From: Candidatus Omnitrophota bacterium
GTDB taxonomy: Bacteria; Omnitrophota; Gorgyraeia; Zapsychrales; JANLHA01
NCBI GenBank assembly: GCA_963662715.1
Contig: OY759724.1
Coordinates: 1,980,001 to 2,012,000, forward strand
Length of the DNA stretch: 32,000 bases
Direction of reading: 5' to 3'
The notes under the pieces were generated by a model that searched no databases, was not told where the DNA came from, and saw only the letters and a program-made list of their open reading frames with translations. The position numbers and the translations under genes are program-made. How positions within the stretch are numbered: the stretch's first letter is position 1; every line of letters begins with the position of its first letter. Below are positions 1,839 to 22,355 of the stretch, one piece after another.

Positions 1839-1856
1839 AAAGGAGGCTAATGTAAA

Positions 1857-4495: not shown

Positions 4496-5392
4496 ATGTC
4501 CAACGTCAATAAGTCCCCCATGCCTTCCAACGGAAATTTATTTATGATTTTTTCGGCTTTAAGGCCCTATCAATGGATTAAAAGTGCCTTTGTTTTTCTG
4601 CCGTTGATTTTCGGCGGCAAACTTTTCCATGTCCCCACGTTTATAAAGACAGTCTGGATGGCTTTAATATTCGCCCTTGCCTCCAGCGCCGTCTATGTCC
4701 TGAATGATATTTATGACTTAACCGAAGATCAAAAACATCCGGATAAATGCCGCCGGCCTCTAGCCGCGGGGGTTATGACCCTGTCCCGGGCCAGGATGAT
4801 CATTGTTTCTCTCTCGCTTATTACGCTTGTCTTGTCATATACCGTTAACATTCATGCCGCATTCATCATTATGGCTTATTTTCTTTTGAATTACCTGTAT
4901 TCGAAATATTTAAAGCATATCGTCATTATTGATGTTTTTTGTATCGGAGCTTTTTATTATTTGCGCATCCTGGCCGGGGGGGTTGCCAGCGATGTTTATT
5001 TGTCAAACTGGATCATTATGTGTTCGGTTTTGTTGGCTTTATTCATCGGATTTAATAAACGCAAATATGACGTTGATTTTGAAAAAGACAATCACGCCCA
5101 GACAGATTCTTATACCCGTTATTATATTGACAGAATGATATCCGTCATTGCCTCCTCCTTAATTATGAGTTATGCCCTTTATGTCATGGACCGGGAAACG
5201 ATTGCCAAATTTCATACAACGGCCCTGATTTATACGGTGCCTTTTGTTTATTACGGGATTTTCCGATATATTTATCTGGTTGATATGAAATTACTGGGAG
5301 GCGATCCGGTGCGCATTCTCTGGAAAGACGGAGTTTTGAAATTGACCGTTTTGTTGTGGCTCCTGACGTGCACCGTCATCATATACGTTTGA
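4496..5392 (+). CDS. UbiA-family prenyltransferase, decaprenyl-phosphate 5-phosphoribosyltransferase (DPPR synthase)-like
   Basis: RPYQWIKSAFVFLPLIF...VYVLNDIYDLTEDQKHPDKCRRPLAAG carries the NDxxDxxxD motif (nt 4703-4729) followed by HPxKxxRPxAxG. That combination is characteristic of the Rv3806c/DPPR-synthase branch. A second acidic motif is YDVDFEKD. The protein is polytopic. Confidence 0.85.
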   Translation: MSNVNKSPMPSNGNLFMIFSALRPYQWIKSAFVFLPLIFGGKLFHVPTFIKTVWMALIFALASSAVYVLNDIYDLTEDQKHPDKCRRPLAAGVMTLSRARMIIVSLSLITLVLSYTVNIHAAFIIMAYFLLNYLYSKYLKHIVIIDVFCIGAFYYLRILAGGVASDVYLSNWIIMCSVLLALFIGFNKRKYDVDFEKDNHAQTDSYTRYYIDRMISVIASSLIMSYALYVMDRETIAKFHTTALIYTVPFVYYGIFRYIYLVDMKLLGGDPVRILWKDGVLKLTVLLWLLTCTVIIYV

Positions 5393-5429
5393 ACGTGCAG
5401 ATGAATTAACAGGGCGTTTTTGAAATTTT

Positions 5430-6173
5430 GTGATGATGTCTCCGGCACATATGAAATTATCCGTTATCATCCCTTTTTATAATGAAAAGGGGAACATCAG
5501 CTTTGTTCTTGATGAAATCAACGAGGTCATGGGGCCCCTGGATATCCCGTATGAAGTCATTGCCGTGGATGACGGAAGCGAGGATGCCACCCCGGACATC
5601 CTCCGGCGCTACTCTCAGGATTGGGAGCAGATGACCGTTGTGACTTTTCCTGAAAATAAGGGAAAGGATGCGGCCATGTTCGCCGGTTTTCATGCCGCCG
5701 GCGGGGATGTGATCGTGACTTTGGACGGGGACGGCCAGAACGACTTTCACGATATCGTTCTGATGCTTCCCTGGTTAAAGGACTATGACGGGGTTTTCGG
5801 CGCCAGAGTCAACCGGCAGGACCCTTTCAGCAAGAAAATCGTTTCCCGGGTGGCGGCTTTTTTCCGGAAGTTGATTCTCAAGGATGACGTGAAAGATACG
5901 GCTTGCGCTTTAAAAGTTTTTAAACGCCACGCGCTCGCGAGCCTCTTTCCGATGAGAGGGGTTCATCGTTTTATCCCGTTTTTATTCCATCTCTCAGGAT
6001 TGACTTATAGAATCGTTCCGGTGCATCATCGGCCGAGAAGGGAGGGCCGGTCAAAATTCTCTCTTAAACGGTTTTATTTCGTTTCGACCATTCTTGATCT
6101 TATGTTTATGTGGTGGTTTAAGTTGAACTATATTCGATGTCAGCGTGAGGAAGGCGGTCTTGGTAGAAAATAA
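5430..6173 (+). CDS. GT2 glycosyltransferase, polyprenyl-phosphate sugar synthase-like (DPM1/Ppm1/ArnC/GtrB type)
   Basis: LSVIIPFYNE...VIAVDDGSEDAT...NKGKDAAMFAGF...VTLDGDGQND (DxD), with C-terminal hydrophobic segments. The start is ambiguous: GTG 5430, ATG 5433, 5436 or 5451. Confidence 0.85.
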   Translation: MMMSPAHMKLSVIIPFYNEKGNISFVLDEINEVMGPLDIPYEVIAVDDGSEDATPDILRRYSQDWEQMTVVTFPENKGKDAAMFAGFHAAGGDVIVTLDGDGQNDFHDIVLMLPWLKDYDGVFGARVNRQDPFSKKIVSRVAAFFRKLILKDDVKDTACALKVFKRHALASLFPMRGVHRFIPFLFHLSGLTYRIVPVHHRPRREGRSKFSLKRFYFVSTILDLMFMWWFKLNYIRCQREEGGLGRK

Positions 6174-6186
6174 CTCTCAACCGGGT

Positions 6187-7386
6187 ATGTCAAAAAAGAT
6201 TTGTCATGGATGGTTTCTTCCCCCTGTCCTCATTTTAACCAGCTTTTTTTTAACAGTCATTTTTTTGGAAATCCTGGCCCGTCTTTTTTTGCCGGTTCCT
6301 CCGAGACTCGTCATCGAGAATTTGAACAAACCCGGCCAGAGCGATTATACGGAATATGGAGACTTCCATGTTGACCAGGATGGGCATATTGAGAGTGAAC
6401 GGCTTCCGGGAGGATTTTTTCTTTACTCGCATACGGGCACGCGGCTTAAAAGAAATGCCAGGGGAGTGGTGCGTAACCATGCTGTTTCGAATACCGATGT
6501 GGACATCTCAACCAATTCTTTGGGATTCCGTCACCGGGAACTTGGCCCGAAGAAAAAAAATGAACTGAGGATTTTGGTCCTGGGAGACAGTATCACTTTC
6601 GGAGACTTTGTCCCGCAGGATCAGACATATCCTGCTTATCTTGAGCGCCATTTGCGGGCGATGTTCCCGGCCAAACATATTGAAGTCATTAACGCCGGGG
6701 TCGGGGGGGTTGATCTTCAGAACGAGTTTGCCATTCTCATGGAAAGCGGTCTTTCCGTTGAGCCGGATATTGTTCTGGTAGGCCTGTACCTGAATGATGC
6801 CCATGAGTCCCCTTTCTTGAAAATCAGCCGTTTGCCCTCCTGGCTGGACTGGAGTCATCTCGCAAGATTTGTCCTGGGCAAGGTGGATAAATTGCGTGCG
6901 TTATACCGGGAGCATAAGTGGGAGGAGCAATCTCCCGAGGCTTGGAAGGAGGCCAGGGCAAGGTTTGCCAGGCAGAACCCTTTACGGGAAGGCGGCGGTA
7001 ATACAGATGCGTCCCTGAATTGGGAGATTCACCATGCGTTCAGGGACTGGGGCTATGCCTGGGATGACGGGTACTGGGATAAGGTTCTGGACATTATTGA
7101 TATGATGGCCGATGTCAGTCAGGACCATCATTTTAAATTGGCTTTCTGTTATTTCCCGGTTCGTTTTCAGATCACAGCCGCCCATCTGAAGAATGAGCCT
7201 CAGCAAAGATTTGAAATGGAAATGCAGCGGCGGCGTTTGCCGCATTTGGATTTGCTGCCTGTTTTAAGATCCAAATATTCCGGAGATCAGCAGGACCTGT
7301 TATATGATCATTGTCATTACCGGCCGGAAGGTAATGCTTTTATCGGGGAAATGTTAGCCCGTTTTATGGCAGATCATTTGCTGTGA
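6187..7386 (+). CDS. Membrane-anchored SGNH/GDSL hydrolase (glycan O-acetyl esterase/transferase-like)
   Basis: All four SGNH blocks are present: LVLGDSITFG (I), INAGVGG (II), GLYLNDA (III) and DHCHYRPEG (V, DxxH). The N-terminal TM is WFLPPVLILTSFFLTVIFLEIL. I prefer ATG 6187 over the track's GTG 6145, which overlaps the upstream gene. Confidence 0.8.
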   Translation: MSKKICHGWFLPPVLILTSFFLTVIFLEILARLFLPVPPRLVIENLNKPGQSDYTEYGDFHVDQDGHIESERLPGGFFLYSHTGTRLKRNARGVVRNHAVSNTDVDISTNSLGFRHRELGPKKKNELRILVLGDSITFGDFVPQDQTYPAYLERHLRAMFPAKHIEVINAGVGGVDLQNEFAILMESGLSVEPDIVLVGLYLNDAHESPFLKISRLPSWLDWSHLARFVLGKVDKLRALYREHKWEEQSPEAWKEARARFARQNPLREGGGNTDASLNWEIHHAFRDWGYAWDDGYWDKVLDIIDMMADVSQDHHFKLAFCYFPVRFQITAAHLKNEPQQRFEMEMQRRRLPHLDLLPVLRSKYSGDQQDLLYDHCHYRPEGNAFIGEMLARFMADHLL

Positions 7387-7453
7387 ATTTCATCACAGGC
7401 CATGAGGGCTTTATCCCGGACGGAAGCTGTCCGGGCAAACCCAGGAGAACAAA

Positions 7454-8173
7454 ATGGAAGGACCTTTAACGTTGATCATGCCGGTTTTCAATGAAGCCGA
7501 AACCATAGAGAAGGTGATCCGTGATACTTACGGAGAAGTGAGCCGCTGGCAGACGGCGGTGAACTTCATTATTGCGGAAGACGGCAGTCAGGACGGGACA
7601 AAGGAAATATTATATGAACTTCAAAAGGATATCCCTTTCACCTTGGTAAGTTCGCAGGAACGTAAAGGCTATACCCGGGCCTTCAAGGATGCCCTGGCTT
7701 TGGCCGGGACCCCCTGGGTCCTTTTCAGCGACTCGGACGGGCAGCACGACCCCCGGGACATGAAGAAGCTCGTTGATGCCGCGGAAGGGTATGATATCGT
7801 CAGCGGATGCAAGACCCCGCGGCATGACCCTCCGCACCGGCTGATGTTATCGTTTTTTTATAATTCTTTTATTCATGTGCTGTTTGGCCTGAAAATGAAA
7901 GACTGCAATTCCGGTTTTAAGCTCATCCGGAAATCCGTTATCGATCAGGTTCTCCCGCAGCTTCAGGATATGCGGGATTGTATTATGTCAGAATTTATCT
8001 TGAGGGCCTATTTATTAGGTTTTAGAATTAGGGAAATCCCCGTAACGCATTATGCCCGGCCTTTCGGGCAGACGGCTATTTTTCAACTGAAACAGTTGCC
8101 GGGTATCATCTGGGGGCTGCTTAAGGCCTTGGTTCATATTAAACGGGAAGATCAAAGAAGAAAAGCGATATGA
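7454..8173 (+). CDS. Second GT2 glycosyltransferase, polyprenyl-phosphate sugar synthase-like
   Basis: AGGAGA RBS. LTLIMPVFNE...IIAEDGSQDGT...RKGYTRAF...LFSDSDGQHD (DxD). Its length and layout match 5430-6173, but the sequence is clearly divergent. Confidence 0.85.
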   Translation: MEGPLTLIMPVFNEAETIEKVIRDTYGEVSRWQTAVNFIIAEDGSQDGTKEILYELQKDIPFTLVSSQERKGYTRAFKDALALAGTPWVLFSDSDGQHDPRDMKKLVDAAEGYDIVSGCKTPRHDPPHRLMLSFFYNSFIHVLFGLKMKDCNSGFKLIRKSVIDQVLPQLQDMRDCIMSEFILRAYLLGFRIREIPVTHYARPFGQTAIFQLKQLPGIIWGLLKALVHIKREDQRRKAI

Positions 8174-9495
8174 AGATCCTTATATTAGGCGCGGGGCTCG
8201 CCGGTTTAGAGTGCGGGCGGCAGCTCCGTCAGCGGGGGTGTGATTTTGCAATTCTTGAAAAAGAGTCGCAGATCGGCGGCCTCGCCAGGACCAACAAGAC
8301 GGGGGATTATGCCTGGGACTTCGGCGTGCATGCTCTTTACAGCCGGCATCCTCATATGACCCGGTATCTGCACAGCCTGCCGTTGGACTACGTTCCGTCG
8401 GAACGGAGAGTTTCCATTTATCATACATCAGGCAGAAACGCGCCCCCGTATTTGATTAACTATCCTTTTGAGGAAGGCATCAAGGGCCTGCCCTGGAAGG
8501 ACCGCTGGGAATGCATCGGCGGATATTTCATTTCGAAATTTCGGCATCAATCCGAATATTGTCATTTGCAGGATTGGATCGATCACGGGCTGGGCTTCGG
8601 GATCGCCAAGCATTTTATGACGCCCTACAACCGGAAAATCTGGAACTGTCCCCTTGAGGACATTTCCATGGATTTGGTCAATGCGAAGATTCATCCCGCT
8701 TCACTCAAGAATTTTCTTATGGCCGCTTTCGGCAGGGAGGTTATCGGGCGAATCTATCAATGGAAATTTGTTTATCCCCGCAGGGGCATTCAGGCCTTAA
8801 TGGATTACACGGCGCAAGACATCCGCGATAAGATACGGGTCAAAAAGCAGGTGGAGAAAATAAGACGGCAGGGTACGGGCTGGGAGGTTTTAACGACCGA
8901 CGGGGATATTGAGAAGGCGGATAGGGTGATTTCTACGATCCCTTTGGTGGAATTATTGAAAATGGTTGAAATGGAAGGCCTGCACAAGAGTTTTTCTCAG
9001 CTGAAATGGAATGACACGTATTTCATTCTTGTCGGATTAAGAAAGGGATGCCGGTTTTCATTGCTGAACGACTGCCACTGGGCTTTTTTTAAAGAGCAGG
9101 AAATTTTCTACCGGATCACGATGATGCATAATTTCAGTGAGGAGTTTTTGCCCGCCTTGGTTGCGGAGGTGACAAATAAGGAAGCCGTCCGGCAGATGTC
9201 CCCGGAACAAATACAGGCCGGGGTCCTCAAGGACTTGACGCGTTTGAACATTATCAAGAACTCCCGGGATGTCGCTGTCACGGACATACGATACGTTCCT
9301 TATACGTACCCTATCCCTACGGTCGATCTGGATTCCGTCAAGGATACGATCACCCGGCGACTGGAAAGGGAAAATATATTGCTTGTCGGACGAAACGGGC
9401 GCTGGGATTACCTGAACATGGACGGGATACTCCGGTCCGTTTCCGAATTTATCCGGGGCTATTTTGGTGATGAGCCGGACGGCCCGCCGCTTTAG
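8170..9495 (+). CDS. FAD-dependent oxidoreductase, UDP-galactopyranose mutase-like
   Basis: ATGA start/stop overlap with the upstream GT2. Rossmann motif KILILGAGLAGL...ILEKESQIGG. FMTPYNRKIWNCP resembles the Glf Y(T/N)xKxW motif. C-terminal LLVGRNGRWDYLNMDGIL resembles the Glf GRLaeYkYyDMd motif. The fold is confident; the exact chemistry is not. Confidence 0.8.
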   Translation: MKILILGAGLAGLECGRQLRQRGCDFAILEKESQIGGLARTNKTGDYAWDFGVHALYSRHPHMTRYLHSLPLDYVPSERRVSIYHTSGRNAPPYLINYPFEEGIKGLPWKDRWECIGGYFISKFRHQSEYCHLQDWIDHGLGFGIAKHFMTPYNRKIWNCPLEDISMDLVNAKIHPASLKNFLMAAFGREVIGRIYQWKFVYPRRGIQALMDYTAQDIRDKIRVKKQVEKIRRQGTGWEVLTTDGDIEKADRVISTIPLVELLKMVEMEGLHKSFSQLKWNDTYFILVGLRKGCRFSLLNDCHWAFFKEQEIFYRITMMHNFSEEFLPALVAEVTNKEAVRQMSPEQIQAGVLKDLTRLNIIKNSRDVAVTDIRYVPYTYPIPTVDLDSVKDTITRRLERENILLVGRNGRWDYLNMDGILRSVSEFIRGYFGDEPDGPPL

Positions 9496-9636: not shown

Positions 9637-11298
9637 ATGAAAATTCAATTAAGAAAAATATCCCCTGGGGCTGTCTGTCACAATGAATGTTTCCCCGCTG
9701 TTCTGTTTGTGATCTTTTTTGTCTTGAGCTGGCTGTTCATGCAGCACACTTTCAGTTATAAAGACGATACATTTTTCCTGAGACATAAAGTCTGGAGCGA
9801 TTTCGGGGCGCATATCCCTCTCATCAGATCTTTTTCCATGGGAGATAATTTCTCCCTCGAACACCCCCTGTTCCCGGGAGACCGGATGCGCTATCATTTC
9901 CTTTTTTATTCCTGGGTCGGACTTCTTGAGCAATGGGGGCTTAATATCGCTGTGGCTCTTAACCTGCTCAGCGCCTTTGGTTTGGCTTTGTTGATGTGGC
10001 TCATCTTTCGTCTGAGTGAAAAGATGTTCACCAGCCGTTTAGCCGGGCTGCTCGCGGTCCTGCTTTTTCTTTTTAACGGATCCCTGTCCTGCCTGTTTTT
10101 CTTCCAGAAACATCCCTTGCACTGGAGTTCCTGGCAGGACATTATCACGGCAGACTCTTTTGCTTCGTTTGGGCCCTGGAACGGGATCGTAAGTATTTTC
10201 TGGACCCTGAATATCTACACCAATCAGCGGCATTTGGCTTTAAGTTATGCCGTGATCCTTTTATGTTTGTGGCCGCTGATGACCCTGGCTTTTGAAGGGA
10301 GAAAGATATCCTTAAGGAATAAGATCGCGATCGGCATGGTCGCGGCGCTTGCCCCGTTTCTTCATCATACGATTATCCCCGTTGTTTTTACATATGTTGT
10401 GATGTGGATGATATTTTGTCCCCGGATGGCAAGGGCCATAGGCCCTTATTATCTGTTCATGTTCCTTTGCGCGGTCCCGGCATTATGGTATATGAACGAC
10501 GGCTCTTCCGTTGATTTTGTCTATTCCCCGGGGTTTGTTCAGCAGCCCAAAAACTGGGTGGAGTGGGCGGAATACTGGATGTATAATCTGGGGCTTTATA
10601 CCGTTCTCATACCCTTTGTCTTTATATGGGCGAAGAAAGGGGGCCGCGTCTGGCTGGCTTCGTCTTTCATCCTTTTTATTGTCAGCAATATCTGGCGGTT
10701 TTCTCCGGACATGTTTAATAATCACAAGCTGATCAATTTCTTTATGATTTCTGTGCAGATTGTCGTTGCCGGATTTCTTGCGCAATGGCTGCGGAAACCC
10801 GGTCTTTTCCGGGCAGGAGCCGTGGCGTTTTTGCTGACTTTGACTTTTTCCGGAGTGATTGATTTTTTCCCGATCCTGAATGACGGCCGGGGGGCCCTGC
10901 GGGACTTCCGCAGATCGCCCGCAGCTGTCTGGATTCAGGAGAATACGTCTCCGCAGTCCGTGTATTTATGTACGAACGGGATGAACTCTCCCCCTTCGTT
11001 CCTGGGGCGCCGGATTTATATGGGGTACGTTTATTTTCCCTGGTCCGCCGGCTTTCCCGCCTATGAAAGACTCCGGGCGATTGAACCCGTTTTTCATGAG
11101 GATACGGACCAGGAATCGGTTTGCCGGCTGCTTCAGCAGGAGCATATCGATTATATTGTCGTCGAACCCGGCACCGATGCCTGGCCGGAGATCGATATCC
11201 ATGACAGTCTGTTATTAAAGACATGGACGCCAATCTTCAAAACAGATGATCGCTACAAGATTTATTCTGTCAAGGAGGAATGTGCTGAGACACGTTAA
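9637..11298 (+). CDS. Large polytopic membrane protein, GT-C-like glycosyltransferase candidate
   Basis: 553 aa with more than 10 hydrophobic helices. The first predicted loop is acidic (YKDDTFF...WSDFGAHIPLIRSFSMGDNFSLEHPLFPG). A roughly 120-aa soluble C-terminal domain follows. No family was recognised by eye. Confidence 0.7.
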   Translation: MKIQLRKISPGAVCHNECFPAVLFVIFFVLSWLFMQHTFSYKDDTFFLRHKVWSDFGAHIPLIRSFSMGDNFSLEHPLFPGDRMRYHFLFYSWVGLLEQWGLNIAVALNLLSAFGLALLMWLIFRLSEKMFTSRLAGLLAVLLFLFNGSLSCLFFFQKHPLHWSSWQDIITADSFASFGPWNGIVSIFWTLNIYTNQRHLALSYAVILLCLWPLMTLAFEGRKISLRNKIAIGMVAALAPFLHHTIIPVVFTYVVMWMIFCPRMARAIGPYYLFMFLCAVPALWYMNDGSSVDFVYSPGFVQQPKNWVEWAEYWMYNLGLYTVLIPFVFIWAKKGGRVWLASSFILFIVSNIWRFSPDMFNNHKLINFFMISVQIVVAGFLAQWLRKPGLFRAGAVAFLLTLTFSGVIDFFPILNDGRGALRDFRRSPAAVWIQENTSPQSVYLCTNGMNSPPSFLGRRIYMGYVYFPWSAGFPAYERLRAIEPVFHEDTDQESVCRLLQQEHIDYIVVEPGTDAWPEIDIHDSLLLKTWTPIFKTDDRYKIYSVKEECAETR

Positions 11299-11302
11299 TT
11301 TT

Positions 11303-16621: not shown

Positions 16622-17659
16622 TCACATGAATTTTTTCACCAGCCCCAAAAGCCCTTGCTTCCAGGCCGCTGTGTGGGTGATCCCTGCTTTACGGCTTTTG
16701 ATGTCCTGATAATTCTCCAAATACCAGGCATAGGTCTTGATAAGAATCTGTGCGTTGGAATAGCGCGGGGACCATTTCAGGGTGTTTTTAAGTTTGTCAA
16801 TGGAGACATAGGAATCTTTATCCGCGGTATCGTAAACCCATTGATAAAGAGGAGAGAGCCGGATAGCTTCCAGGAAACGCAAGAAACCTTTAATTGTGTT
16901 CGCTGAAGTGGGGAAGAGGGTGGAGCCCGATTCCGCAAAATGGAATAAGGCTTCCAGGTCATCCTGGACCGTGCTGAATTTTTCTGCCGCGACATTAAAG
17001 ACGTCGTTGAACGCTGCGTCCTGTTTCTGAACAAAAAGCGCGATGACGTCAACCAGATCATCGACCGCCAAAAGCTGGTAGGAGTTCTGTCCGTCTCCGA
17101 TAACCGGAATCTTCTTGCCGTCATGCACCCAGTCAAAAAGGATTTCAAAGACGCCCAGCCGGCCGGTGCCTAAAAATGTCTTTGGCCGTAAAATCGTTAC
17201 GTTAAGGCCTTTTTTTATATATCCAAGACACAGTTCTTCTGCGGCGATTTTGGATTCGCCGTAAGGCCCGACGCCCATTAACCGGTCGCTTTCTAGAATG
17301 GGATGTTTTTCCGGAATGCCGTAGACAGCCGTCGAAGAGATATAAATCACTCTCTGAACATGGTGGGTATGCGCGGCATCCAGGATGTATTTTGTCCCGC
17401 TGACATTGGTGGAAAAAATATCCGCTTTTTTCCAGAGGGGGAGCGCCGCAGCGGCATGAATAACGATATCCATCCCTCTGACAAGCTCCGGGATGTTTTC
17501 TTCCTGCCGGATATCCCTGCGGATAAAACGGCAGGATTTTTTTAAAGGATTGTCGACCGAAGCGATATCCACCAGCGTGAGTTTATGATTTTGTTTAAGC
17601 AGGGAATGCGCACAGTGTGTGCCCAGGAAACCGGCTGCGCCTGTAATGAGAATATTCAT
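16622..17659 (-). CDS. NAD-dependent epimerase/dehydratase (extended SDR)
   Basis: MNILITGAAGFLGTH (GxxGxxG) and the YGESK catalytic YxxxK motif; 345 aa. It is the only minus-strand gene in the island. Confidence 0.9.
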   Translation of the reverse strand: MNILITGAAGFLGTHCAHSLLKQNHKLTLVDIASVDNPLKKSCRFIRRDIRQEENIPELVRGMDIVIHAAAALPLWKKADIFSTNVSGTKYILDAAHTHHVQRVIYISSTAVYGIPEKHPILESDRLMGVGPYGESKIAAEELCLGYIKKGLNVTILRPKTFLGTGRLGVFEILFDWVHDGKKIPVIGDGQNSYQLLAVDDLVDVIALFVQKQDAAFNDVFNVAAEKFSTVQDDLEALFHFAESGSTLFPTSANTIKGFLRFLEAIRLSPLYQWVYDTADKDSYVSIDKLKNTLKWSPRYSNAQILIKTYAWYLENYQDIKSRKAGITHTAAWKQGLLGLVKKFM

Positions 17660-17725: not shown

Positions 17726-17734
17726 ATTATATCA
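17726..17734 (-). promoter_or_regulatory. Possible extended -10 promoter (TGaTATAAT on the minus strand) for the SDR gene
   Basis: The reverse complement of 17726-17734 reads TGATATAAT, identical to the element at 13109-13117. It lies about 67 nt upstream of the start codon at 17659. Confidence 0.4.
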
Positions 17735-17789
17735 CAGAGGAAAAGTCTTCCCAAAAGCCAAACGAGGTAATTTGTCGGTTAAAAAATAA

Positions 17790-19889
17790 ATGAATCCTAT
17801 CCTGATAAATTTAGGTCTTATCGTTTTTGCCTGGTTCATGACGCTCATTCTTCAGCTGTTCGCTGTCCCGGTGATCGTCGTGAAGCTCCGGAACGTGTTG
17901 TTCGACGCCGGATGGGCTTTCGGCCGGCTGGTGTCCTGGTTAAGCCTTGGCCTGCCGATATGGTTTTTAGCCCATTTCCAATGCCCTGTGAATAATCAGC
18001 CCGGGCTGTTTATCGTTTTTTTCCTTTGGGCGGCTTTGAGCTGGAGAACTTTTCATAAGAATAAGGATGAAATAGTGCTTTATCTGCAGGAAAAGTGGCC
18101 CTGGCTCCTTGCAGAAGAAGTTGTTTTCGCGTTTGGCTTTTTCTTTTTCAGCCTCATGCGGGGTTTTGCTCCTGATATCCTTGATTTAGAGAAGTTCATG
18201 GACATGGGCCTGATGGCCTCTTATCTCCGCGCTGACACTTTCCCGGTTTTGGATATGTGGTTTGCCGGAGAAACCATGAACTATTATACATTCGGGCATT
18301 TTTTGGGTTCCATCATGACGAGGTTCTGGTCGGTGCCTTTACATTACAGCTATAATTTATTATTGGGCCTTGTGTTCGGCCTGACAATGGTCCACAGCTT
18401 TGGTTTTGTTTTGAACCTTTTACAGAGAAGCGGGGATGAAACAGCCCCGCCCCTGGGCCCGCTGGTCTGGGGAGGGGCTGTCGGGGCTTTTTTGATTGTT
18501 TTTGCCGGGAACAGCCATGCGATTTGGTACGGGATCAAAAACCACGGCTGGCAGGGATATTGGTATCCGGACGCGACGCGATTTATTCCCTACACGATTC
18601 ATGAATTCCCGGCGTATTCATTTATTGTCAGTGACCTGCATGCCCATGTCTGGAATTTCCCCCTGGTGATCGCCTTATTGACAGCGATTTTTTTGTGGTA
18701 CCGCGCGGTATTGATTTCCGAACAGCCGAGACGGATTTATCTTCGGGCTTTTTTTGTGAGTTTGATGTTCAGCATCTGTTTTATGACCAGCGCCTGGGAC
18801 GGGGGTATCTATGCGCTACTTTTAGGTGTTTGCGGAGTGAGCCTGCTGATGTTTTATCCGAAACGTTTCCGGCATATTGCCGCTTCTCTGGGGCTCATGG
18901 GGTGTCTGTCGGCCTTGATTTCTTCAGCCTGGTGGTTGCATTTCCGTCCTATTTCCGAAGGGGTCGGGATAGTGGAAACCAGTACTCATTTCTGGCAAAT
19001 GTTGATTGTCTGGGGCGGGTTAGGCCTCGGGAGTTTTTTGGCTTTCAGCATCGCTGACCATCAAAACAGACATTTGATTTATATGGCCCATGTCGTTAAA
19101 AGAAGAAAGCAGGCTGTCTTAGGTCTTGTGATGGCGCTTATTGCGGCGGCCTGGATTCTCATATTGCTCCCGGAACTTATTTATGTCAAAGACATTTATC
19201 CGAATCATCCCCGGGCCAACACGATGTTTAAATTTACTCTGCAGAGCTATATCTTTATGTGCCTCTCAACAGGCTGGGCTTCGGGTTTTATTTGGCTGAA
19301 AGAGTTTCTGCCGCATAATAAATACCGCTTATGGATCAGGGGTTTTTTGTCATTCGTTCTTATTGTTGTTGTTTCTTCGCTTTTAATTTATCCGTATTTC
19401 GGCTATCGGGACAGATACGGTCAGTTGAAAAATTTTAAAGGACTCGACGGATTAACCTGGCTTAAAGAAAAATATCCTGATGATTATGCGGCTGTCTTAT
19501 GGCTGAATCAAAATGTCTCCGGACAGGCTGTTATATTAGAGGCGGTGGGCACCAGCTATTCTGAATTCAGCCGGATATCGGCTTTTACCGGCCTTCCGAC
19601 GGTCGTTGGCTGGCCGGTCCATGAATGGTTGTGGCGGGGTTCATACGATATCCCGGGTTCACGCATCGAAGAAGTCAGGAGGATGTACGAGAACCCGGTC
19701 TCTTATAATTCGGCCATGTCTTTTGAAAAGTACCTGGTGGATTATATATTTGTGGGAGCCAAGGAGCGGGAGGCCTATCCTGAGCTTAAAGAAAGGCAGC
19801 TCCGGGCGTTAGGAAAGGTGATTTTTGAACAGGGAGACACGTTGGTCGTTAAACGTAATATAAGCCCTGCGATGTATCCGATTTATTAA
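17790..19889 (+). CDS. DUF2298 (Chlor_Arch_YYY) family large membrane protein, GT-C-like
   Basis: DLEKFMDMGLMASYLRADTFPVLDMWFAGETMNYYTFGHF matches the DUF2298 signature (EKpMD...fPP.DpWfaG..inYYYfG) from memory. 699 aa, polytopic, with a C-terminal soluble domain. Confidence 0.85.
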   Translation: MNPILINLGLIVFAWFMTLILQLFAVPVIVVKLRNVLFDAGWAFGRLVSWLSLGLPIWFLAHFQCPVNNQPGLFIVFFLWAALSWRTFHKNKDEIVLYLQEKWPWLLAEEVVFAFGFFFFSLMRGFAPDILDLEKFMDMGLMASYLRADTFPVLDMWFAGETMNYYTFGHFLGSIMTRFWSVPLHYSYNLLLGLVFGLTMVHSFGFVLNLLQRSGDETAPPLGPLVWGGAVGAFLIVFAGNSHAIWYGIKNHGWQGYWYPDATRFIPYTIHEFPAYSFIVSDLHAHVWNFPLVIALLTAIFLWYRAVLISEQPRRIYLRAFFVSLMFSICFMTSAWDGGIYALLLGVCGVSLLMFYPKRFRHIAASLGLMGCLSALISSAWWLHFRPISEGVGIVETSTHFWQMLIVWGGLGLGSFLAFSIADHQNRHLIYMAHVVKRRKQAVLGLVMALIAAAWILILLPELIYVKDIYPNHPRANTMFKFTLQSYIFMCLSTGWASGFIWLKEFLPHNKYRLWIRGFLSFVLIVVVSSLLIYPYFGYRDRYGQLKNFKGLDGLTWLKEKYPDDYAAVLWLNQNVSGQAVILEAVGTSYSEFSRISAFTGLPTVVGWPVHEWLWRGSYDIPGSRIEEVRRMYENPVSYNSAMSFEKYLVDYIFVGAKEREAYPELKERQLRALGKVIFEQGDTLVVKRNISPAMYPIY

Positions 19890-19914
19890 TTATTTTTTGT
19901 CGGGGAGGGGAATT

Positions 19915-20352
19915 ATGAAAAGAATAACTAAGATGACCAGAGATGAAAAAAATTTGTATAAACGGTATCTTCTTTGGTGTTATAAGACGACCCGCGAATC
20001 CCTGGAAAGGATTGACAGGAAATTTACGCAGTTGGATATCGATAAGTTTGTCTATGACGATATCTGCAAATGTCCTGAACTGCGAGACAAGTCTAAAGAG
20101 AAAAAATATCAAGGGAAACTTGTTGAATTTAAGCAGTATATAACGCATAAAGAGAAAAGTGCTTATGTTGAAAAATTTGAACGGGGCAAGATCCCGGAGT
20201 TAAAAGCAGATTACTGGTATTGGGATAAACGATTAAAAGCCATTAAAAAAGCCGTAAGACATTTCTTGGGGGCAAGAGCTTTAACCCAAATTGAGCGAGC
20301 TTATGAAGAGGAAATGGAGCGGCGTATTTTGGCGGCACGGGAGCATTCCTGA
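19915..20352 (+). CDS. Hypothetical cytoplasmic, highly charged helical protein
   Basis: GGGGAGGGG RBS 5 nt before ATG 19915, preferred over the track's TTG 19897. No TM segment and no recognisable motif. Confidence 0.65.
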   Translation: MKRITKMTRDEKNLYKRYLLWCYKTTRESLERIDRKFTQLDIDKFVYDDICKCPELRDKSKEKKYQGKLVEFKQYITHKEKSAYVEKFERGKIPELKADYWYWDKRLKAIKKAVRHFLGARALTQIERAYEEEMERRILAAREHS

Positions 20353-20465
20353 AAAAATATTTTAACAATGGACGTTTTAATTTGTTTGTTATTTTGTAAA
20401 TTATTGCAATTAAATATTTTACGGCTAGACAATTTGTTAAGACTTCTTCAATTCAGATAAAAATA

Positions 20466-20474
20466 TGTTATAAT
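20466..20474 (+). promoter_or_regulatory. Extended -10 promoter (TGtTATAAT) immediately upstream of the small pilin-like gene
   Basis: TG at 20466-20467 and TATAAT at 20469-20474. A weak -35, TTCAAT, lies at 20447-20452 (16-nt spacer). The ATG at 20483 is only 8 nt past the -10, implying a leaderless mRNA or use of ATG 20495. Confidence 0.45.
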
Positions 20475-20482
20475 ATAACTAA

Positions 20483-20722
20483 ATGAAGAAAGAAATGCTG
20501 AAGAAATTATTTAACAAGAAAGCCCAGCAGACAGTTGAGTTTTTGTTGGTGTTTACGGTTGTCGTCGTGGTTATTTTTGTCTTTATGAGGCCAGGCGGTG
20601 AATTTCAGACCGAATACCCCAGGGCTCTTAATGCCCCTGTTCAAAGTATGGTCGAAGTTGCCGATATGGTTTGGGGAGACGCAACCGGAACATTGCAGGT
20701 CTCCTCTCCGGGCCCTCCGTGA
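20483..20722 (+). CDS. Small Flp/archaeal-type class III signal peptide (prepilin-like) protein
   Basis: A basic leader (MKKEMLKKLFNKKA) is followed by QQTVEFLLVFTVVVVVIFVF. This fits QxTxE with Glu at +5 after a putative A|Q cleavage, then a roughly 20-aa hydrophobic helix. The predicted mature size of about 65 aa is Flp-like. The N-terminus is paralogous to that of 21042. Confidence 0.65.
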   Translation: MKKEMLKKLFNKKAQQTVEFLLVFTVVVVVIFVFMRPGGEFQTEYPRALNAPVQSMVEVADMVWGDATGTLQVSSPGPP

Positions 20723-20826: not shown

Positions 20827-20990
20827 TGCTGTCTCATACATATCAAAAAATCCGTTATTGGGGCGTTTCCCGTATAATAAAAGCGATTCGGGCCTATGCA
20901 CGCATCATTTTATTGGTTTATGGCTTATGCCCAAGTTATTAGGTAAATCCAGAGAGAAATACAAAATTTTTTATTGATTTTTGAAAATTA

Positions 20991-20999
20991 TGTTATACT
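20991..20999 (+). promoter_or_regulatory. Extended -10 promoter (TGtTATACT) for the large pilin-like gene
   Basis: TG at 20991-20992 and TATACT at 20994-20999, in a context (ATTATGTTATACTAATATTAA) that parallels the element at 20466 (ATATGTTATAATATAACTAA). Confidence 0.4.
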
Positions 21000-21041
21000 A
21001 ATATTAAATTATCTCTATAAAAATTGATACTTCATTAAACC

Positions 21042-22355
21042 ATGAAAGTTGTTAATAAAAAAGCCCAACAAATCATAGAGTACCTTTTGCTTGTTGCTGT
21101 TGTGGTTGTTGGAATCTTGTCTTTTGTCGGGCCTTTCGGGCCTTTTCGTCCTGCGGTAGAGGACTCCATAAAACAGTCTTTAGCGCAGATTAATGCTGAA
21201 ACAGCAAAACACTGCAGTGATCCCAGCTGTTTCTCCGTAATCGCCTGCCCGGATGCCCTTTTCTGCCAGCTGGCTTATATGGGTGATGTCGGCGCGTGTC
21301 AGCAGTGTGAAGCCTGTTGGCCTTGTTGCGGCGACGGGACCTGTGGTGCAGGGGAAGACAGTGGTAGCTGCCCGGAGGATTGTATCGCCTGCGGGGATCC
21401 CGCCTATGACTGCTCGACGCAAGCCAATTGTGCGGCCTGTGCAGCCTGTTCTCCCTGCTGCGGAGATGGTGTTTGCGATGCCGGGGAAACGGCACTTTCT
21501 TGTCCTGTTGATGGCTGTGCCGCTGCCTGCGGGGAACCGGGTTTTGACTGTGTCGCTGGCTGCGGCAGTTGTGCGGCCTGTTCTCCATGCTGCGGAGACG
21601 GCGTTTGTAATGAAGACCCGGCGTCATGTGTCGCAGACTGTCCTATAGGCTGCGGTCATCCTTCGTATGATTGTAGTATTCCGGCAAATTGCGCCTCATG
21701 CGGTTATTGCCAGCCCTGCTGCGGTGATTCCCAATGTACCTCGGGGGTTGAGACTTATTGCGGGACAGGCGGGACAGATGCCTGTACATTGGATTGTACC
21801 GCTGACTGTCCTAATGGTGTTTGTGATGACTGTGCCGGAGAGAACTCGACGAACTGTCCGGAAGATTGCGGGGCGCTGTGCGGGGATGGCACGTGTGATT
21901 ATCCGGGGACGGAAGACTGTGACGCCTGCTATCAGGACTGCGGATATTGCAGCTGGTGGACCGGTGCCTGGGGGGCTTGTCTCGGTGACTGCACGATCCC
22001 TTCCTGTATTCAAACGAGAACGGTCGAATGCCGGGATTTCGGTTCCAACAGCGTTCTTTTCGGATACTGTGAAGCCTCTGGAGAACCTGAGCCGACCCAG
22101 ACATGTACTTGCCCTACTTGTACGCCGACGCCGACCCCAACGCCGACGCCAACCTCAACCCCGACTCCGACAGTGACGCCGACCCCGACGGAAACTCCGA
22201 CTCCGACGCCGACTCCGACAGTGACGCCGACCCCGACAGTGACGCCGACGCCGACGATTACCCCGACCCCGACAGATACCCCGACGCCGACCCCAACGCC
22301 GACGATTACCCCGACCCCGACAGATACCCCGACGCCGACCCCAACGCCCGGCTGA
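21042..22355 (+). CDS. Pilin-like (class III signal peptide) Cys-rich repeat surface protein with TSR-like module and C-terminal Thr-Pro tail
   Basis: The N-terminus is MKVVNKKA|[18 protein letters not shown] (Glu+5, Tyr+6). Residues 58-360 contain 62 Cys by my hand count, in tandem CG.P.YDC....C..C..C.PCCGDG.C..GE...CP.DC modules. Residues 304-357 resemble a thrombospondin type 1 repeat. Residues 361-437 are (TP)n. Confidence 0.85.
21384..21797 (+). repeat. Three full tandem ~41-52-aa Cys-rich modules (protein-level repeat, partly visible in DNA); partial units flank them on both sides
   Basis: The modules are [86 protein letters not shown] and [32 protein letters not shown]...TLDC. In the DNA, TGTTCTCC(C/A)TGCTGCGGAGA(T/C)GG(T/C)GTTTG recurs near 21448 and 21578. 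Confidence 0.8.
22122..22352 (+). repeat. Thr-Pro dipeptide-coding microsatellite-like repeat, including a 48-nt tandem duplication
   Basis: The region encodes 77 aa, of which 67 are T or P by hand count. The unit 22254-22301 (ACGATTACCCCGACCCCGACAGATACCCCGACGCCGACCCCAACGCCG) repeats at 22302-22349 with one mismatch. Confidence 0.95.

What the first reader, a model, noticed from the sequence alone, without database searches (positions are those of the whole stretch)
4496..22355. Candidate undescribed surface-protein/pilin glycosylation system: lipid-phosphate sugar donors plus five GT-C-like enzymes next to a Thr/Pro-tailed pilin-like substrate
Seen: eleven consecutive genes (4496-19889) encode a DPPR-synthase-like UbiA enzyme, two divergent GT2 polyprenyl-phosphate sugar synthase-like enzymes, a TM-anchored SGNH hydrolase, a Glf-like flavoenzyme, an extended SDR and five different large polytopic GT-C-like proteins. 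About 600 bp downstream lie two prepilin-like genes, one carrying a 77-aa (TP)n tail. I could not recognise any Wzx/Wzy pair, WbaP/WecA-type initiating enzyme, ABC exporter or run of soluble GT-A/GT-B enzymes, so it does not look like a standard O-antigen or capsule locus. Established: polyprenyl-monophosphate sugars plus GT-C enzymes are the toolkit for glycosylation on the outer face of the cytoplasmic membrane. Actinobacterial Ppm1 (GT2) and Pmt (GT39) O-mannosylate Thr/Pro-rich secreted proteins. Mycobacterial UbiA (Rv3806c)/DprE1/DprE2 make decaprenyl-P-arabinofuranose for Emb/Aft GT-C enzymes. Pseudomonas aeruginosa PA7/Pa5196 uses homologues of that pathway plus the GT-C enzyme TfpW to O-arabinosylate its pilin. 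Inference: this island builds one or more lipid-linked (possibly furanose) donors and decorates the adjacent pilin-like proteins with a complex O-glycan. Alternative acceptors such as lipid A/LPS or another envelope polymer remain possible.
Basis: partly seen in the sequence, partly recalled or inferred. Interest (0 to 1): 0.85.

Follow-up and report, generated by a model that had tools for sequence, protein, structure and literature searches.

The report
Lipid-linked-sugar glycosylation island beside pilin-like genes
An uncultured Omnitrophota bacterium carries a gene island that makes membrane-lipid-linked sugars and five enzymes that attach them outside the cell membrane; the target is not known, and the Thr/Pro-rich pilin-like protein encoded next door is the leading candidate.

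Summary
Window 4496-19889 encodes eleven genes:
- a decaprenyl-phosphate phosphoribosyltransferase-like UbiA enzyme;
- two ArnC/DPMS-like GT2 enzymes;
- a membrane-anchored SGNH hydrolase;
- a flavoenzyme related to eukaryote-type UDP-galactopyranose mutase (UGM);
- an extended SDR;
- five polytopic proteins, all linked to the GT-C fold (two by predicted structure, three by profile).

Two pilin-like genes follow. One has a 77-aa TP tail.

The 'lipid-phosphate donors plus GT-C' reading is well supported. It is a more elaborate relative of the pentofuranose three-component systems (Kelly et al. 2024), the mycobacterial arabinan toolkit and TfpW.

The pilin-acceptor idea is plausible but unproven:
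- Adjacency is kept only in one Omnitrophota clade, where the flanking genes are kept too.
- The pilin-like genes have their own conserved promoters.
- The core (UGM-like + GT-C + DUF2298) occurs in 78 Patescibacteria loci with no pilin-like gene.
- Yet in 31 of 65 such loci the gene just upstream encodes a membrane-anchored, Pro/Thr-rich surface protein. This supports a broader 'TP-rich surface protein' acceptor.

No flippase or 5-phosphatase gene lies in the island.

Verdict: a real, new variant of a known kind, of moderate to high interest.

The parts
4217..4244 (+). Sigma-70-type promoter-like site (TTGACA-16-TATAAT with TG extension) upstream of the island
   Evidence: 12 of 12 consensus matches. 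TTGACAG...TGTTATAAT is conserved in window, L001, L002 and L006 while the surrounding DNA diverges.
4496..5392 (+). UbiA-family polyprenyl-phosphate phosphoribosyltransferase (DPPR/PPPR synthase-like). No fused phosphatase domain.
   Evidence: NF008977 at 241 bits, above the 234 cut-off. Full-length match to solved DPPRS 8j8j, E 3e-36, including NDxxDxxxDxxHPxKxxRPxAAG.
5430..6173 (+). GT2a: short polyprenyl-phosphate sugar synthase-like GT2 (ArnC/PgfS/DPMS-like)
   Evidence: Glycos_transf_2 E 4e-28. Best NCBIfam matches are ArnC and PgfS, both below their cut-offs. Found in the Omnitrophota loci only.
6145..7386 (+). SGNH/GDSL hydrolase with an N-terminal membrane anchor; catalytic domain predicted to be periplasmic. 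The likely true start is the ATG at 6187.
   Evidence: Lipase_GDSL_2 31.6 bits against a 32.9 cut-off. The GDS, GxND and DxxH blocks can be read in the translation. Absent from all 78 Patescibacteria loci.
7454..8173 (+). GT2b: polyprenyl-phosphate sugar synthase-like GT2; its stop overlaps the start of the UGM-like gene
   Evidence: Glycos_transf_2 E 4e-23. The only solved relatives are ArnC (E 2e-14) and Pyrococcus DPMS. A GT2 sits directly upstream of the flavoenzyme in 13 Patescibacteria loci.
8170..9495 (+). Cytoplasmic flavoenzyme related to eukaryote-type UDP-galactopyranose mutase
   Evidence: Amino_oxidase E 6e-23. Aspergillus UGM 3ukk/3ute E 6e-28 over residues 3-337; T. cruzi UGM 4dsg over residues 2-414. 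Directly upstream of the 9637-type gene in most Patescibacteria loci (66 of 78 with the window protein as seed; 78 loci in all with a Levybacteria seed).
9637..11298 (+). GT-C-fold glycosyltransferase P6 (DUF2298-related family, no Pfam hit of its own)
   Evidence: AF2 pLDDT 89.2, pTM 0.91. Foldseek: DPY19 E 4e-10, STT3, AglB, PglB, AftA. Invariant S54-D55-F56 near the N-terminus. 1316 homologues; relatives in 312 species genomes.
11246..13018 (+). GT-C-like P7 (PMT_2/ArnT-like). The likely true start is the ATG at 11303.
   Evidence: PMT_2 25.7 bits against a 26.1 cut-off. The orthologue in L001 hits PMT_2. Family profile against the P8 family 95% (E 3e-8) and against the P6 family 93%. An HPDE motif follows TM1.
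13220..14926 (+). GT-C-fold P8 (rare family, 11 proteins found)
   Evidence: AF2 pLDDT 76, pTM 0.83. Foldseek: ArnT 5ezm E 1.6e-6, STT3, AftA, AftD, PglB, EmbB. Absent from relatives L001-L012.
14957..16555 (+). GT-C-like P9 (no Pfam or PDB match by sequence). Travels with P8 as a two-gene cassette.
   Evidence: 499 relatives in the exhaustive search. Family profile against the P6 family: 94.4% probability, E 9e-8, 342 columns, with P9's invariant D127 aligned to P6's invariant D55. The P8-P9 pair is found elsewhere, next to PMT genes, in L092 and L097.
16622..17659 (-). Extended SDR (GalE/RmlB-like). Candidate epimerase of the lipid-linked pentofuranose or of a nucleotide sugar.
   Evidence: Epimerase E 2e-42. 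Solved relatives are NDP-sugar epimerases and dehydratases. A 45-46% identical SDR lies in the same UbiA-containing cassette in Patescibacteria loci L047 and L082.
17790..19889 (+). GT-C-like P11, DUF2298 / Chlor_Arch_YYY family
   Evidence: PF10060 E 3e-80. TIGR03662 at 413 bits, above the 300 cut-off. Family profile against the P6 family: 98.4% probability, E 8e-15, 475 columns. Paired with P6 in 66 of 78 Patescibacteria loci.
19897..20352 (+). Conserved soluble ~144-151-aa protein of unknown function, between the island and the pilin-like genes
   Evidence: Present in all 11 Omnitrophota loci and in none of the Patescibacteria loci. No family match.
20483..20722 (+). Small pilin-like protein (79 aa) with a class III/Flp-like N-terminus (KKA|QQTVEF + hydrophobic helix). 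Has its own promoter-like element.
   Evidence: Class_IIIsignal E 0.006, below threshold. Conserved in L001-L012. Conserved TATGTTATAAT upstream. The L007 orthologue carries a P/T/S-rich tail.
21042..22355 (+). Large pilin-like protein (437 aa): class III/Flp-like N-terminus, about five Cys-rich CCGDGxC repeats and a terminal 77-aa (TP)n tail (DNA 22122-22352). Candidate acceptor.
   Evidence: Translation. Tandem DNA repeats. Cysteines and tail conserved in six orthologues. No Pfam or NCBIfam match. Family found only in close relatives.

Best explanation
This is a chromosomal glycan-diversity island of an Omnitrophota bacterium. It glycosylates envelope targets on the periplasmic face of the inner membrane, using polyprenyl-monophosphate sugars.

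Inferred donor synthesis in the cytoplasm:
1. The UbiA enzyme transfers ribose-5-phosphate from PRPP to polyprenyl phosphate. After dephosphorylation by an enzyme not encoded here, the GalE-like SDR may epimerise the lipid-linked ribofuranose to another pentofuranose. ORF13 of Citrobacter youngae O2 works this way.
2. The UGM-like flavoenzyme makes a UDP-furanose (for example UDP-Galf). The translationally coupled GT2b loads it onto polyprenyl phosphate.
3. GT2a makes a further polyprenyl-P-hexose.

After flipping (no flippase gene in the island), five GT-C enzymes transfer these sugars. The membrane-anchored SGNH enzyme adds or removes an acyl group.

The acceptor I consider most likely is the Thr/Pro-rich segments of surface proteins. 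The first candidate is the (TP)n tail of the adjacent 437-aa pilin-like protein. The number and kind of GT-C genes differ between close relatives, so the glycan probably varies between strains, as a serotype does.

Shown: the gene families, the GT-C folds, the conservation and the neighbourhoods. Inferred: the sugars, the order of reactions and the acceptor.
For: Families and folds.

One conserved strong promoter lies ahead of UbiA, and the genes are tightly packed.

Units kept across phyla:
- The GT2b/UGM-like/P6 unit: the flavoenzyme is directly upstream of P6 in 66 of 78 Patescibacteria loci, and a GT2 is directly upstream of it in 13.
- The UbiA/HAD/SDR plus P6/P7/DUF2298 cassette is found in Patescibacteria loci L047, L058 and L082.

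Precedent: an SDR epimerase acting on undP-Ribf, and complex systems with several GT-C enzymes (PMC11127046).

Evidence for a protein acceptor:
- The pilin-like pair with TP tail follows the island in all related Omnitrophota loci, down to 45% identity. There (L007) the small pilin-like protein itself has a P/T/S tail.
- In 31 of 65 Patescibacteria loci the gene immediately upstream of the module encodes an N-terminally anchored protein with a Pro/Thr-rich stretch, against 5% of background ORFs. These proteins belong to at least two different families.
- pilN/pilO-like genes precede the module in about 35 loci.
- True PMT-family genes sit in the same loci.
- The best structural matches of P6 are peptide-modifying GT-C enzymes: DPY19, STT3 and PglB.

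Variable GT-C content (3, 4 or 5 genes) among close relatives.
Against: - There is no direct evidence of any glycan or of a modified protein.
- The Omnitrophota loci also share their unrelated flanking genes, so pilin adjacency there may reflect relatedness only.
- Both pilin-like genes have their own conserved promoter-like elements.
- No pilin-like N-terminus lies near the module in any of the 78 Patescibacteria loci.
- The Patescibacteria loci are related to one another, so the 31 of 65 count is not a count of independent events.
- An LCP (LytR-CpsA-Psr) gene about 5 kb downstream in 38 loci, plus nearby FemAB and MurJ genes, would fit a wall-polymer target equally well.
- The L007 island contains a GT9 heptosyltransferase-like gene, a family typical of LPS core synthesis.
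- The island has no flippase gene and no 5-phosphatase gene.
- The role of the flavoenzyme is unresolved: it could be a mutase or a DprE1-like oxidase.
- The pilin nature of the two proteins rests on sub-threshold matches. No pilus assembly genes lie in the window.
Confidence: 0.45

Rival explanations
1. The donor and GT-C chemistry is the same, but the acceptor is a glycan or glycolipid rather than a protein. The island would build or decorate an envelope polymer: LPS core or O-chain, or a lipoglycan, in the diderm Omnitrophota, and a wall-linked furanose polymer in Patescibacteria. The models are mycobacterial arabinogalactan/LAM and the Citrobacter pentofuranose side-chain system. The pilin-like genes would then be mere neighbours.
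For: - All characterised systems that start with a DPPRS-like enzyme, except the one serving TfpW, act on polysaccharides (PMC11127046).
- UGM + DPPRS + several GT-C enzymes + LCP is the arabinogalactan gene set. An LCP gene lies about 5 kb downstream of the module in 38 Patescibacteria loci, beside FemAB and MurJ.
- A GT9 heptosyltransferase-like gene sits inside the L007 island.
- The best structural match of P8 is ArnT, a lipid A transferase, followed by AftA, AftD and Emb.
- The pilin-like genes have separate promoters.
- The core is widespread without pilin-like genes.
Against: - The window has no initiating phosphoglycosyl transferase, no cytoplasmic polymerising GT, and no Wzx/Wzy or ABC exporter to supply a polymer acceptor.
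- Patescibacteria have no outer membrane (my own background knowledge), so lipid A or LPS cannot be the ancestral target of the core.
- The positional enrichment of anchored TP-rich proteins immediately upstream (24 of 37 TP-rich ORFs lie 1-3 kb upstream, against 1 in the 10 kb downstream) is not explained.
- PMT-family protein mannosyltransferase-like genes share the loci.
Confidence: 0.38
2. The island is not one pathway. It would be a cluster of several independent extracytoplasmic modification units that happen to lie together and have different acceptors. Candidate units are UbiA+SDR+GT-C, GT2b+UGM-like+P6, GT2a+another GT-C, and the inserted P8-P9 cassette.
For: - The units occur separately elsewhere. 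The P8-P9 pair sits next to PMT genes at another site in the same relative that also has the island (L097 and L011).
- UGM-like+P6+DUF2298 occurs without UbiA or SDR in most Patescibacteria loci.
- In L098, UbiA, PMT, PMT_2, a P8-like gene, PAP2 and DUF2298 occupy the same slot without P6 or the flavoenzyme.
Against: - A single conserved promoter precedes the island, the genes on the + strand are tightly packed and some overlap.
- The whole set is kept together over 45-65% protein identity within Omnitrophota.
- UbiA, SDR, P6, P7 and DUF2298 also travel together in three Patescibacteria loci.
Confidence: 0.12

Closest known systems
Three-component pentofuranose side-chain systems (Citrobacter youngae O1/O2 ORF15/ORF14/ORF12, plus the ORF13 epimerase; Kelly et al. 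2024, PMC11127046)
   Same: A DPPRS-like polyprenyl phosphoribose synthase that starts from PRPP. A GalE-like SDR that can change the pentofuranose. GT-C enzymes acting outside the cytoplasm. Use of polyprenyl-monophosphate donors. The paper also notes uncharacterised elaborate versions with several GT-C enzymes, FAD oxidoreductases and epimerases.
   Different: No fused or separate phosphoribose phosphatase, and no MATE or GtrA flippase, in the island. There are five GT-C enzymes, from DUF2298-like and PMT_2-like families; their relation to GT136 was not tested. The island adds two ArnC/DPMS-like GT2 enzymes, a UGM-like enzyme and an SGNH enzyme. No O-antigen locus lies around it.
Pseudomonas aeruginosa Pa5196/PA7 pilin arabinosylation (TfpW with PsPA7_6246-6249; bioRxiv 10.1101/2020.04.19.049825)
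   Same: A DPPRS-like donor pathway combined with a GT-C enzyme that O-glycosylates a pilin on Ser/Thr. In that system TfpW may do without a dedicated flippase, which could parallel the lack of a flippase gene here.
   Different: There are no DprE1/DprE2 homologues. The pilin-like proteins here have a class III/Flp-like N-terminus and a long terminal TP tail, not a type IVa pilin. The donor genes lie next to the transferases here, whereas the TfpW reconstitution supplied the Araf biosynthesis genes as a set separate from pilA and tfpW. There are five transferases rather than one. Glycosylation is unproven.
Mycobacterial/corynebacterial arabinogalactan and LAM toolkit (UbiA Rv3806c, Rv3807c, DprE1/E2, Glf, Emb/Aft GT-C enzymes, Lcp1)
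   Same: A DPPRS homologue (E 3e-36 to the solved enzyme), a UGM-type flavoenzyme and several GT-C transferases with fold similarity to AftA, AftD, AftB and Emb. An LCP gene lies nearby in the Patescibacteria versions.
   Different: The UGM-like enzyme is of the eukaryote type. There is no DprE1/E2, no PAP2 phosphatase in the window, no GlfT-type cytoplasmic galactan polymerase and no WecA-type initiator. The GT-C enzymes are not Emb/Aft family members by sequence.
Actinobacterial protein O-mannosylation (Ppm1 GT2 + Pmt GT39)
   Same: A DPMS-like GT2 makes a polyprenyl-P-hexose. A PMT-related GT-C enzyme is present, and Thr/Pro-rich secreted proteins are the presumed targets.
   Different: The window has only a sub-threshold PMT_2 match and no PF02366 PMT domain. 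True PMT genes appear only in the Patescibacteria loci.

Membership tests
GT-C fold glycosyltransferases | Polytopic membrane protein whose fold matches solved GT-C enzymes | tested here: met
   P6 and P8: AF2 models match DPY19, STT3, PglB and AftA, and ArnT, STT3, AftA and AftD, with probability 1.00 and E down to 4e-10 and 1.6e-6. P7, P9 and P11 are joined to them only by profile-profile matches of 93-98% probability.
GT-C fold glycosyltransferases | Conserved acidic residue in the first extracytoplasmic loop | tested here: inconclusive
   P6 has an invariant D55 and P9 an invariant D127, and the two align to each other. P7 has HPDE after TM1. P8 has a nearly invariant E106 and an invariant D122. 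The position of these residues relative to the membrane was not checked on the models.
Three-component pentofuranose glycosylation system (Kelly et al. 2024) | Polyprenyl phosphoribose synthase (DPPRS-like UbiA) | tested here: met
   NF008977 above its cut-off; 8j8j E 3e-36 over the full length.
Three-component pentofuranose glycosylation system (Kelly et al. 2024) | Phosphoribose 5-phosphatase (fused HAD-type PRP domain or a separate enzyme) | tested here: not met
   The UbiA protein is 298 aa with no extra domain. tblastn with the HAD-like proteins of the Patescibacteria loci finds nothing in the window (best E 0.35). No PAP2 or HAD hit among the window ORFs. The gene may lie elsewhere in the genome.
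Three-component pentofuranose glycosylation system (Kelly et al. 2024) | Dedicated MATE (or GtrA/SMR) flippase encoded with the system | tested here: not met
   No such Pfam or NCBIfam hit among the ORFs of the window. There is no unassigned gap in the island large enough for such a gene.
Three-component pentofuranose glycosylation system (Kelly et al. 2024) | GT-C enzyme of family GT136 | not tested
Only the GT-C fold was shown.
Mycobacterial DPA pathway | DprE1 (VAO-type FAD) and DprE2 (classical SDR) 2'-epimerase pair | tested here: not met
   The flavoenzyme is of the Amino_oxidase/UGM type with no FAD_binding_4 hit. The SDR is of the extended Epimerase type (adh_short only E 0.007). A functional analogue cannot be excluded.
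UDP-galactopyranose mutase | Homology over the FAD and substrate domains to solved UGMs | tested here: met
   E 6e-28 to Aspergillus UGM over residues 3-337; T. cruzi UGM over residues 2-414. The NCBIfam bacterial UGM model matches only the N-terminus.
UDP-galactopyranose mutase | Conserved UDP- and sugar-binding residues; mutase activity | not tested
   A residue-level alignment to a solved UGM was not made. Activity needs an assay.
Type IV / Tad (class III signal) pilins | Short basic leader, cleavage site, Glu at +5 and a hydrophobic N-terminal helix | tested here: inconclusive
   The motif KKA|QQxxE(F/Y) plus about 20 hydrophobic residues is present and conserved. Pfam Class_IIIsignal reaches only E 0.006 on the 79-aa protein, below its cut-off, and finds nothing on the 437-aa protein.
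Type IV / Tad (class III signal) pilins | Linked prepilin peptidase and assembly genes | tested here: not met
   None in the 32-kb window. The rest of the genome could not be examined.
TfpW-type pilin O-glycosylation | Pilin shown to carry the glycan; GT-C enzyme required | not testable with these tools
   Needs glycoproteomics and genetics.
O-antigen / capsule locus | Initiating phosphoglycosyl transferase, Wzx/Wzy or ABC transporter, cytoplasmic GT-A/GT-B enzymes | tested here: not met
   None among the window ORFs. The related locus L007 does carry a GT9-like gene and extra GT2 genes.
Protein O-mannosyltransferase (GT39, PMT) | PF02366 PMT domain | tested here: not met
   The only hit is PMT_2, at 25.7 bits against a 26.1 cut-off, on P7.

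The most novel reading that the evidence does not exclude
The UGM-like flavoenzyme, the 9637-type GT-C enzyme and the DUF2298 GT-C enzyme form the core of a previously unrecognised protein O-glycosylation system. It would be shared by Patescibacteria (Microgenomates) and one Omnitrophota clade. It would use lipid-linked furanoses, including a polyprenyl-phosphate hexofuranose donor (I know of no described example), to coat Thr/Pro-rich tails of pilin-like and other anchored surface proteins of ultra-small bacteria. Strain-variable GT-C cassettes would diversify the glycan.
Probability: 0.25. Interest if true: 0.8.

Novelty: new variant of a known kind. Interest (0 to 1): 0.6.

Why it matters
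How Patescibacteria and Omnitrophota, mostly uncultured ultra-small bacteria, glycosylate their surfaces is almost unexplored. A 2024 Saccharibacteria pilus preprint calls it 'unexplored glycosylation processes' (PMC11623550).

This island gives a concrete gene set that can be cloned:
- A GT-C pair (the 9637-type protein plus DUF2298) with relatives in at least 312 species genomes and no assigned function.
- That pair is usually coupled to a eukaryote-type UGM-like enzyme.
- Candidate protein substrates are encoded next door.

If the TP tails are the acceptors, this would be only the second link I know of between a DPPRS-type pathway and pilin glycosylation, after TfpW. It would assign a function to DUF2298. 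If the acceptor is a glycan, it extends the pentofuranose three-component concept to two more phyla. Either way, the variable number of GT-C genes among close relatives points to serotype-like surface diversification. That is relevant to phage and host interactions of these organisms.

Tried and rejected
- Sequence searches of P6, P7 and P11 against solved structures, and profile searches with the P6, P8 and P9 family alignments, found nothing useful. Fold assignment needed AF2 plus Foldseek, or profile-profile comparison.
- Pfam scans of the P8 and P9 family members gave only noise.
- hhalign of a family profile against a single sequence was too weak to decide. It worked once both sides were families.
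- The window's own proteins are not indexed for contig look-up, so the rest of the source genome could not be examined. A 100% identical protein is on record on a 3.36-Mb contig.
- A metagenome scan with the pilin-like alignment returned only three close relatives. The association could therefore not be tested from the pilin side.
- Rfam (gathering scores on the whole window; E-value mode on the 5' leader) and the tRNA scan found nothing. A PRPP-type riboswitch ahead of UbiA is not supported.
- The polytopic proteins are not transporters or Wzy-type polymerases: transporter matches had probability below 0.3 and TM-scores near 0.1.
- I rejected filing the island as a standard three-component system, because no flippase or phosphatase gene lies in it.
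- I rejected filing it as a DPA pathway, because it has no DprE1/E2.

Full report
**Source and layout**

The window comes from an Omnitrophota genome. A protein 100% identical to the 9637-11298 product is on record on a 3.36-Mb contig, and the nearest named relatives are Candidatus Omnitrophota. The finding's coordinates are correct. Eleven genes occupy 4496-19889, ten on the + strand and one SDR on the - strand. A perfect TTGACA-16-TATAAT site with a TG extension lies at 4217-4244. It is conserved in three relatives while the DNA around it diverges, so the island probably has its own promoter.

**Donor-side enzymes**

- The UbiA protein passes the curated NCBIfam cut-off for decaprenyl-phosphate phosphoribosyltransferase (241 against 234 bits). 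It aligns end to end with the solved enzyme 8j8j (E 3e-36), including the NDxxDxxxDxxHPxKxxRPxAAG segment.
- The two GT2 proteins are short (247 and 239 aa). Their best matches are ArnC, PgfS, PpgS and dolichyl-phosphate hexose transferases.
- The only solved relatives of GT2b are ArnC and Pyrococcus DPMS, all polyprenyl-phosphate glycosyltransferases.
- The flavoenzyme matches eukaryote-type UDP-galactopyranose mutases over nearly its whole length (E 6e-28). Other flavoenzymes match only the FAD-binding N-terminus.
- The SDR is an extended, GalE/RmlB-like enzyme.
- The SGNH protein has an N-terminal membrane anchor, readable GDS, GxND and DxxH blocks, and a just-sub-threshold GDSL_2 score.

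**The five polytopic proteins**

Direct sequence and profile searches against solved structures failed. The fold evidence came from other routes:

- P6 (9637): an AF2 model from 38 homologues is confident (pLDDT 89, pTM 0.91). Its top 16 Foldseek matches are all GT-C enzymes: DPY19, STT3, AglB, PglB and AftA, with E from 4e-10 to 6e-5.
- P8 (13220): the model is of moderate confidence (pLDDT 76, pTM 0.83). It matches ArnT, STT3, AftA, AftD, PglB and Emb.
- P7 (11246): it falls 0.4 bits below the PMT_2 cut-off. Its L001 orthologue is listed with PMT_2. Its family profile matches the P8 family (95%, E 3e-8) and the P6 family (93%).
- P11 (17790): a strong DUF2298/TIGR03662 member. Its family matches the P6 family at 98.4% (E 8e-15, 475 columns).
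- P9 (14957): it has no Pfam or PDB match. Its family (499 relatives in the exhaustive search) matches the P6 family at 94.4%, and the invariant Asp of each family aligns to the other.

All five are therefore GT-C or GT-C-like. They form two groups: DUF2298-like (P6, P9, P11) and PMT_2/ArnT-like (P7, P8). The refutation 'they fold as transporters' fails, because transporter matches had negligible probability.

**The pilin-like genes**

The two downstream genes have N-termini of the form basic leader, A|QQxxE(F/Y), then a hydrophobic helix. This fits a class III/Flp-type signal with Glu at +5. Pfam Class_IIIsignal matches only the 79-aa protein, and only below threshold. The 437-aa protein has about five Cys-rich CCGDGxC repeats with no family match, and a terminal 77-aa (TP)n tail. 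Both features are conserved in six orthologues.

**Comparative genomics within Omnitrophota**

Relatives at 65% identity (L001-L006, L010-L012) and at 45% identity (L007, L008) keep the island, a 144-151-aa unknown protein and the pilin-like genes. They also keep the unrelated flanking genes (porin, ParA-CBM48, SpeE-like). Adjacency at this range therefore says little about function.

The informative point is variation. The number of GT-C genes is 3 in L002, 4 in L001 and L006 (which carry a different, 495-aa PMT_2-like gene), and 5 in the window. L007 instead carries a radical SAM gene, a GT9-like gene, an extra GT2 and a GT22-like gene. In L007 the small pilin-like protein carries a P/T/S tail.

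P8 and P9 are a mobile two-gene cassette. In L092 and L097 they sit beside PMT genes at another site. L097 comes from the same MAG that also has the island (L011). Both pilin-like genes have their own conserved extended -10 elements.

**Comparative genomics beyond Omnitrophota**

The P6 family has 1316 detectable homologues, and relatives in 312 of the 185,579 species genomes scanned. Nearly all are Patescibacteria of the Microgenomates group. In 78 such loci:

| Neighbour of P6 | Loci |
|---|---|
| UGM-like gene directly upstream | 66 |
| DUF2298 gene nearby | 66 |
| PMT_2-like gene | 41 (window P7 as seed) |
| GT2 directly upstream of the flavoenzyme | 13 |
| HAD-like gene (DxDGV) after P6 or between SDR and UbiA | 29 |
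| UbiA | 3 |
| SDR | 8 |
| LCP gene about 5 kb downstream | 38 |

(A Levybacteria PMT_2-like protein used as seed finds a relative in 63 loci in all.)

L082 holds the compact cassette DUF2298 / P6-P7 / SDR-HAD-UbiA / flavoenzyme. The pentofuranose branch and the GT-C core therefore do travel together across phyla, at 29-46% identity.

No ORF with a pilin-like N-terminus lies near the module in any Patescibacteria locus. However, ORFs with a stretch of at least 60% Pro/Thr cluster 1-3 kb upstream of P6: 24 of 37 lie there, against 1 in the 10 kb downstream. The gene immediately upstream of the [GT2-]flavoenzyme-P6 unit has a 30-aa stretch of at least 50% Pro/Thr, behind an N-terminal anchor, in 31 of 65 loci. 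The figure for background ORFs is 5%.

These neighbours belong to at least two families (fn3/Big_13, about 450 aa; CARDB, about 200 aa). In about 35 loci they follow pilN-like and pilO genes (Pfam PilO 38.5 bits). In L098 the same slot holds UbiA, PMT, PMT_2, a P8-like gene, PAP2 and DUF2298. The loci are related to one another, so these counts are not independent events.

**Literature**

Kelly et al. 2024 (PMC11127046) defined three-component systems: a polyprenyl phosphoribose synthase with a phosphatase domain, a MATE flippase and a GT-C enzyme of family GT136. These systems add pentofuranoses to O antigens outside the cytoplasm. The paper showed that a GalE-like SDR (ORF13) converts undP-Ribf to undP-Xylf. 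It also noted uncharacterised elaborate versions with several GT-C enzymes and epimerases. TfpW uses a homologous donor pathway to arabinosylate a pilin. I found no functional work on DUF2298, and nothing on pilin glycosylation machinery in Patescibacteria.

**Interpretation**

The island is best read as an elaborate relative of these systems. It could make up to three lipid-linked donors:

- a pentofuranose, through UbiA with or without the SDR;
- a possible hexofuranose, through the UGM-like enzyme and GT2b;
- a hexose, through GT2a.

Five GT-C enzymes and an SGNH enzyme would then act in the periplasm. Two expected parts are missing from the island: the 5-phosphatase and a flippase.

The acceptor is open. 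I put about 0.45 on Thr/Pro-rich surface proteins, including the adjacent pilin-like protein. I put about 0.38 on an envelope glycan or glycolipid, and about 0.12 on a cluster of independent units. The kind of system is known. The GT-C families, their coupling to a UGM-like enzyme, their spread in Patescibacteria and their TP-rich neighbours are new as far as I could find. I therefore classify it as a new variant of a known kind, with interest 0.6.

Noticed in passing
window 1263-3008: A 191-aa membrane protein with a weak CBM_11 match is followed by a ParA/MinD-type ATPase fused to a C-terminal glycogen-binding AMPK1_CBM/CBM48 domain. The pair is conserved in all Omnitrophota relatives. It may be a ParA-like positioning system for a carbohydrate granule.
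   Followed up: no
window 13220-16555; L092 119-3390; L097 10001-13293: P8 and P9 form a two-gene GT-C cassette. In relatives it lies at a different site, beside PMT/PMT_2 genes and behind a 1015-aa TPR protein and a MamF_MmsF-like protein. In this genome it has been inserted into the UbiA island.
   Followed up: partly
window 21300-22100 (residues about 90-350 of the 437-aa protein): About five repeats of a Cys-rich module (CxxCxPCCGDGxC...CPxDC) with no Pfam or NCBIfam match. Roughly 60 cysteines, all conserved in six orthologues.
   Followed up: partly
window 20440-20480 and 20990-21030; window 4217-4244: Three promoter-like elements share the extended -10 form TG(T/A)TATA(A/C)T. They lie ahead of UbiA, the 79-aa gene and the 437-aa gene, and each is conserved in relatives.
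   Followed up: partly
window 22637-24493: A 618-aa protein with a polytopic N-terminal half fused to a spermidine-synthase-like domain (PRK03612 type). It is conserved directly after the pilin-like genes in the relatives.
   Followed up: no
L082 1329-5742: In a Patescibacteria locus, two large collagen-triple-helix-repeat proteins lie upstream of the GT-C cassette. One has MerR/HTH domains and the other a Peptidase_S74 (endosialidase chaperone) domain, which recalls phage tail fibres.
   Followed up: no
L014-L089 record titles: Many MAGs labelled 'uncultured Pseudomonadales' or 'uncultured Gammaproteobacteria' (binchicken and SRP co-assemblies) carry the same locus, in the same gene order, as named Levy-, Woese- and Daviesbacteria. 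L011 is labelled Planctomycetales but is syntenic with Omnitrophota. These labels look unreliable.
   Followed up: no
L009 11659-12249; L082 14345-14977 (-): A roughly 200-aa HAD-like protein (motif DxDGV) with no Pfam hit lies directly after the P6 homologue, or between SDR and UbiA, in 29 Patescibacteria loci. It is a candidate phosphoribose 5-phosphatase and is absent from the Omnitrophota island.
   Followed up: partly
window 24635-24868 (-): A small ORF with a lipoprotein-type signal (MKFFSLFLCIILCTGC) lies in an otherwise ORF-poor 0.9-kb stretch between the SpeE-like gene and the 25418 gene.
   Followed up: no
window 3389-4129: A 246-aa protein with a very Lys/Arg-rich N-terminal half and a weak EF-Tu domain-2-like C-terminus lies directly upstream of the island promoter. 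It is conserved, but diverges fast, among the relatives (35-53% identity).
   Followed up: no
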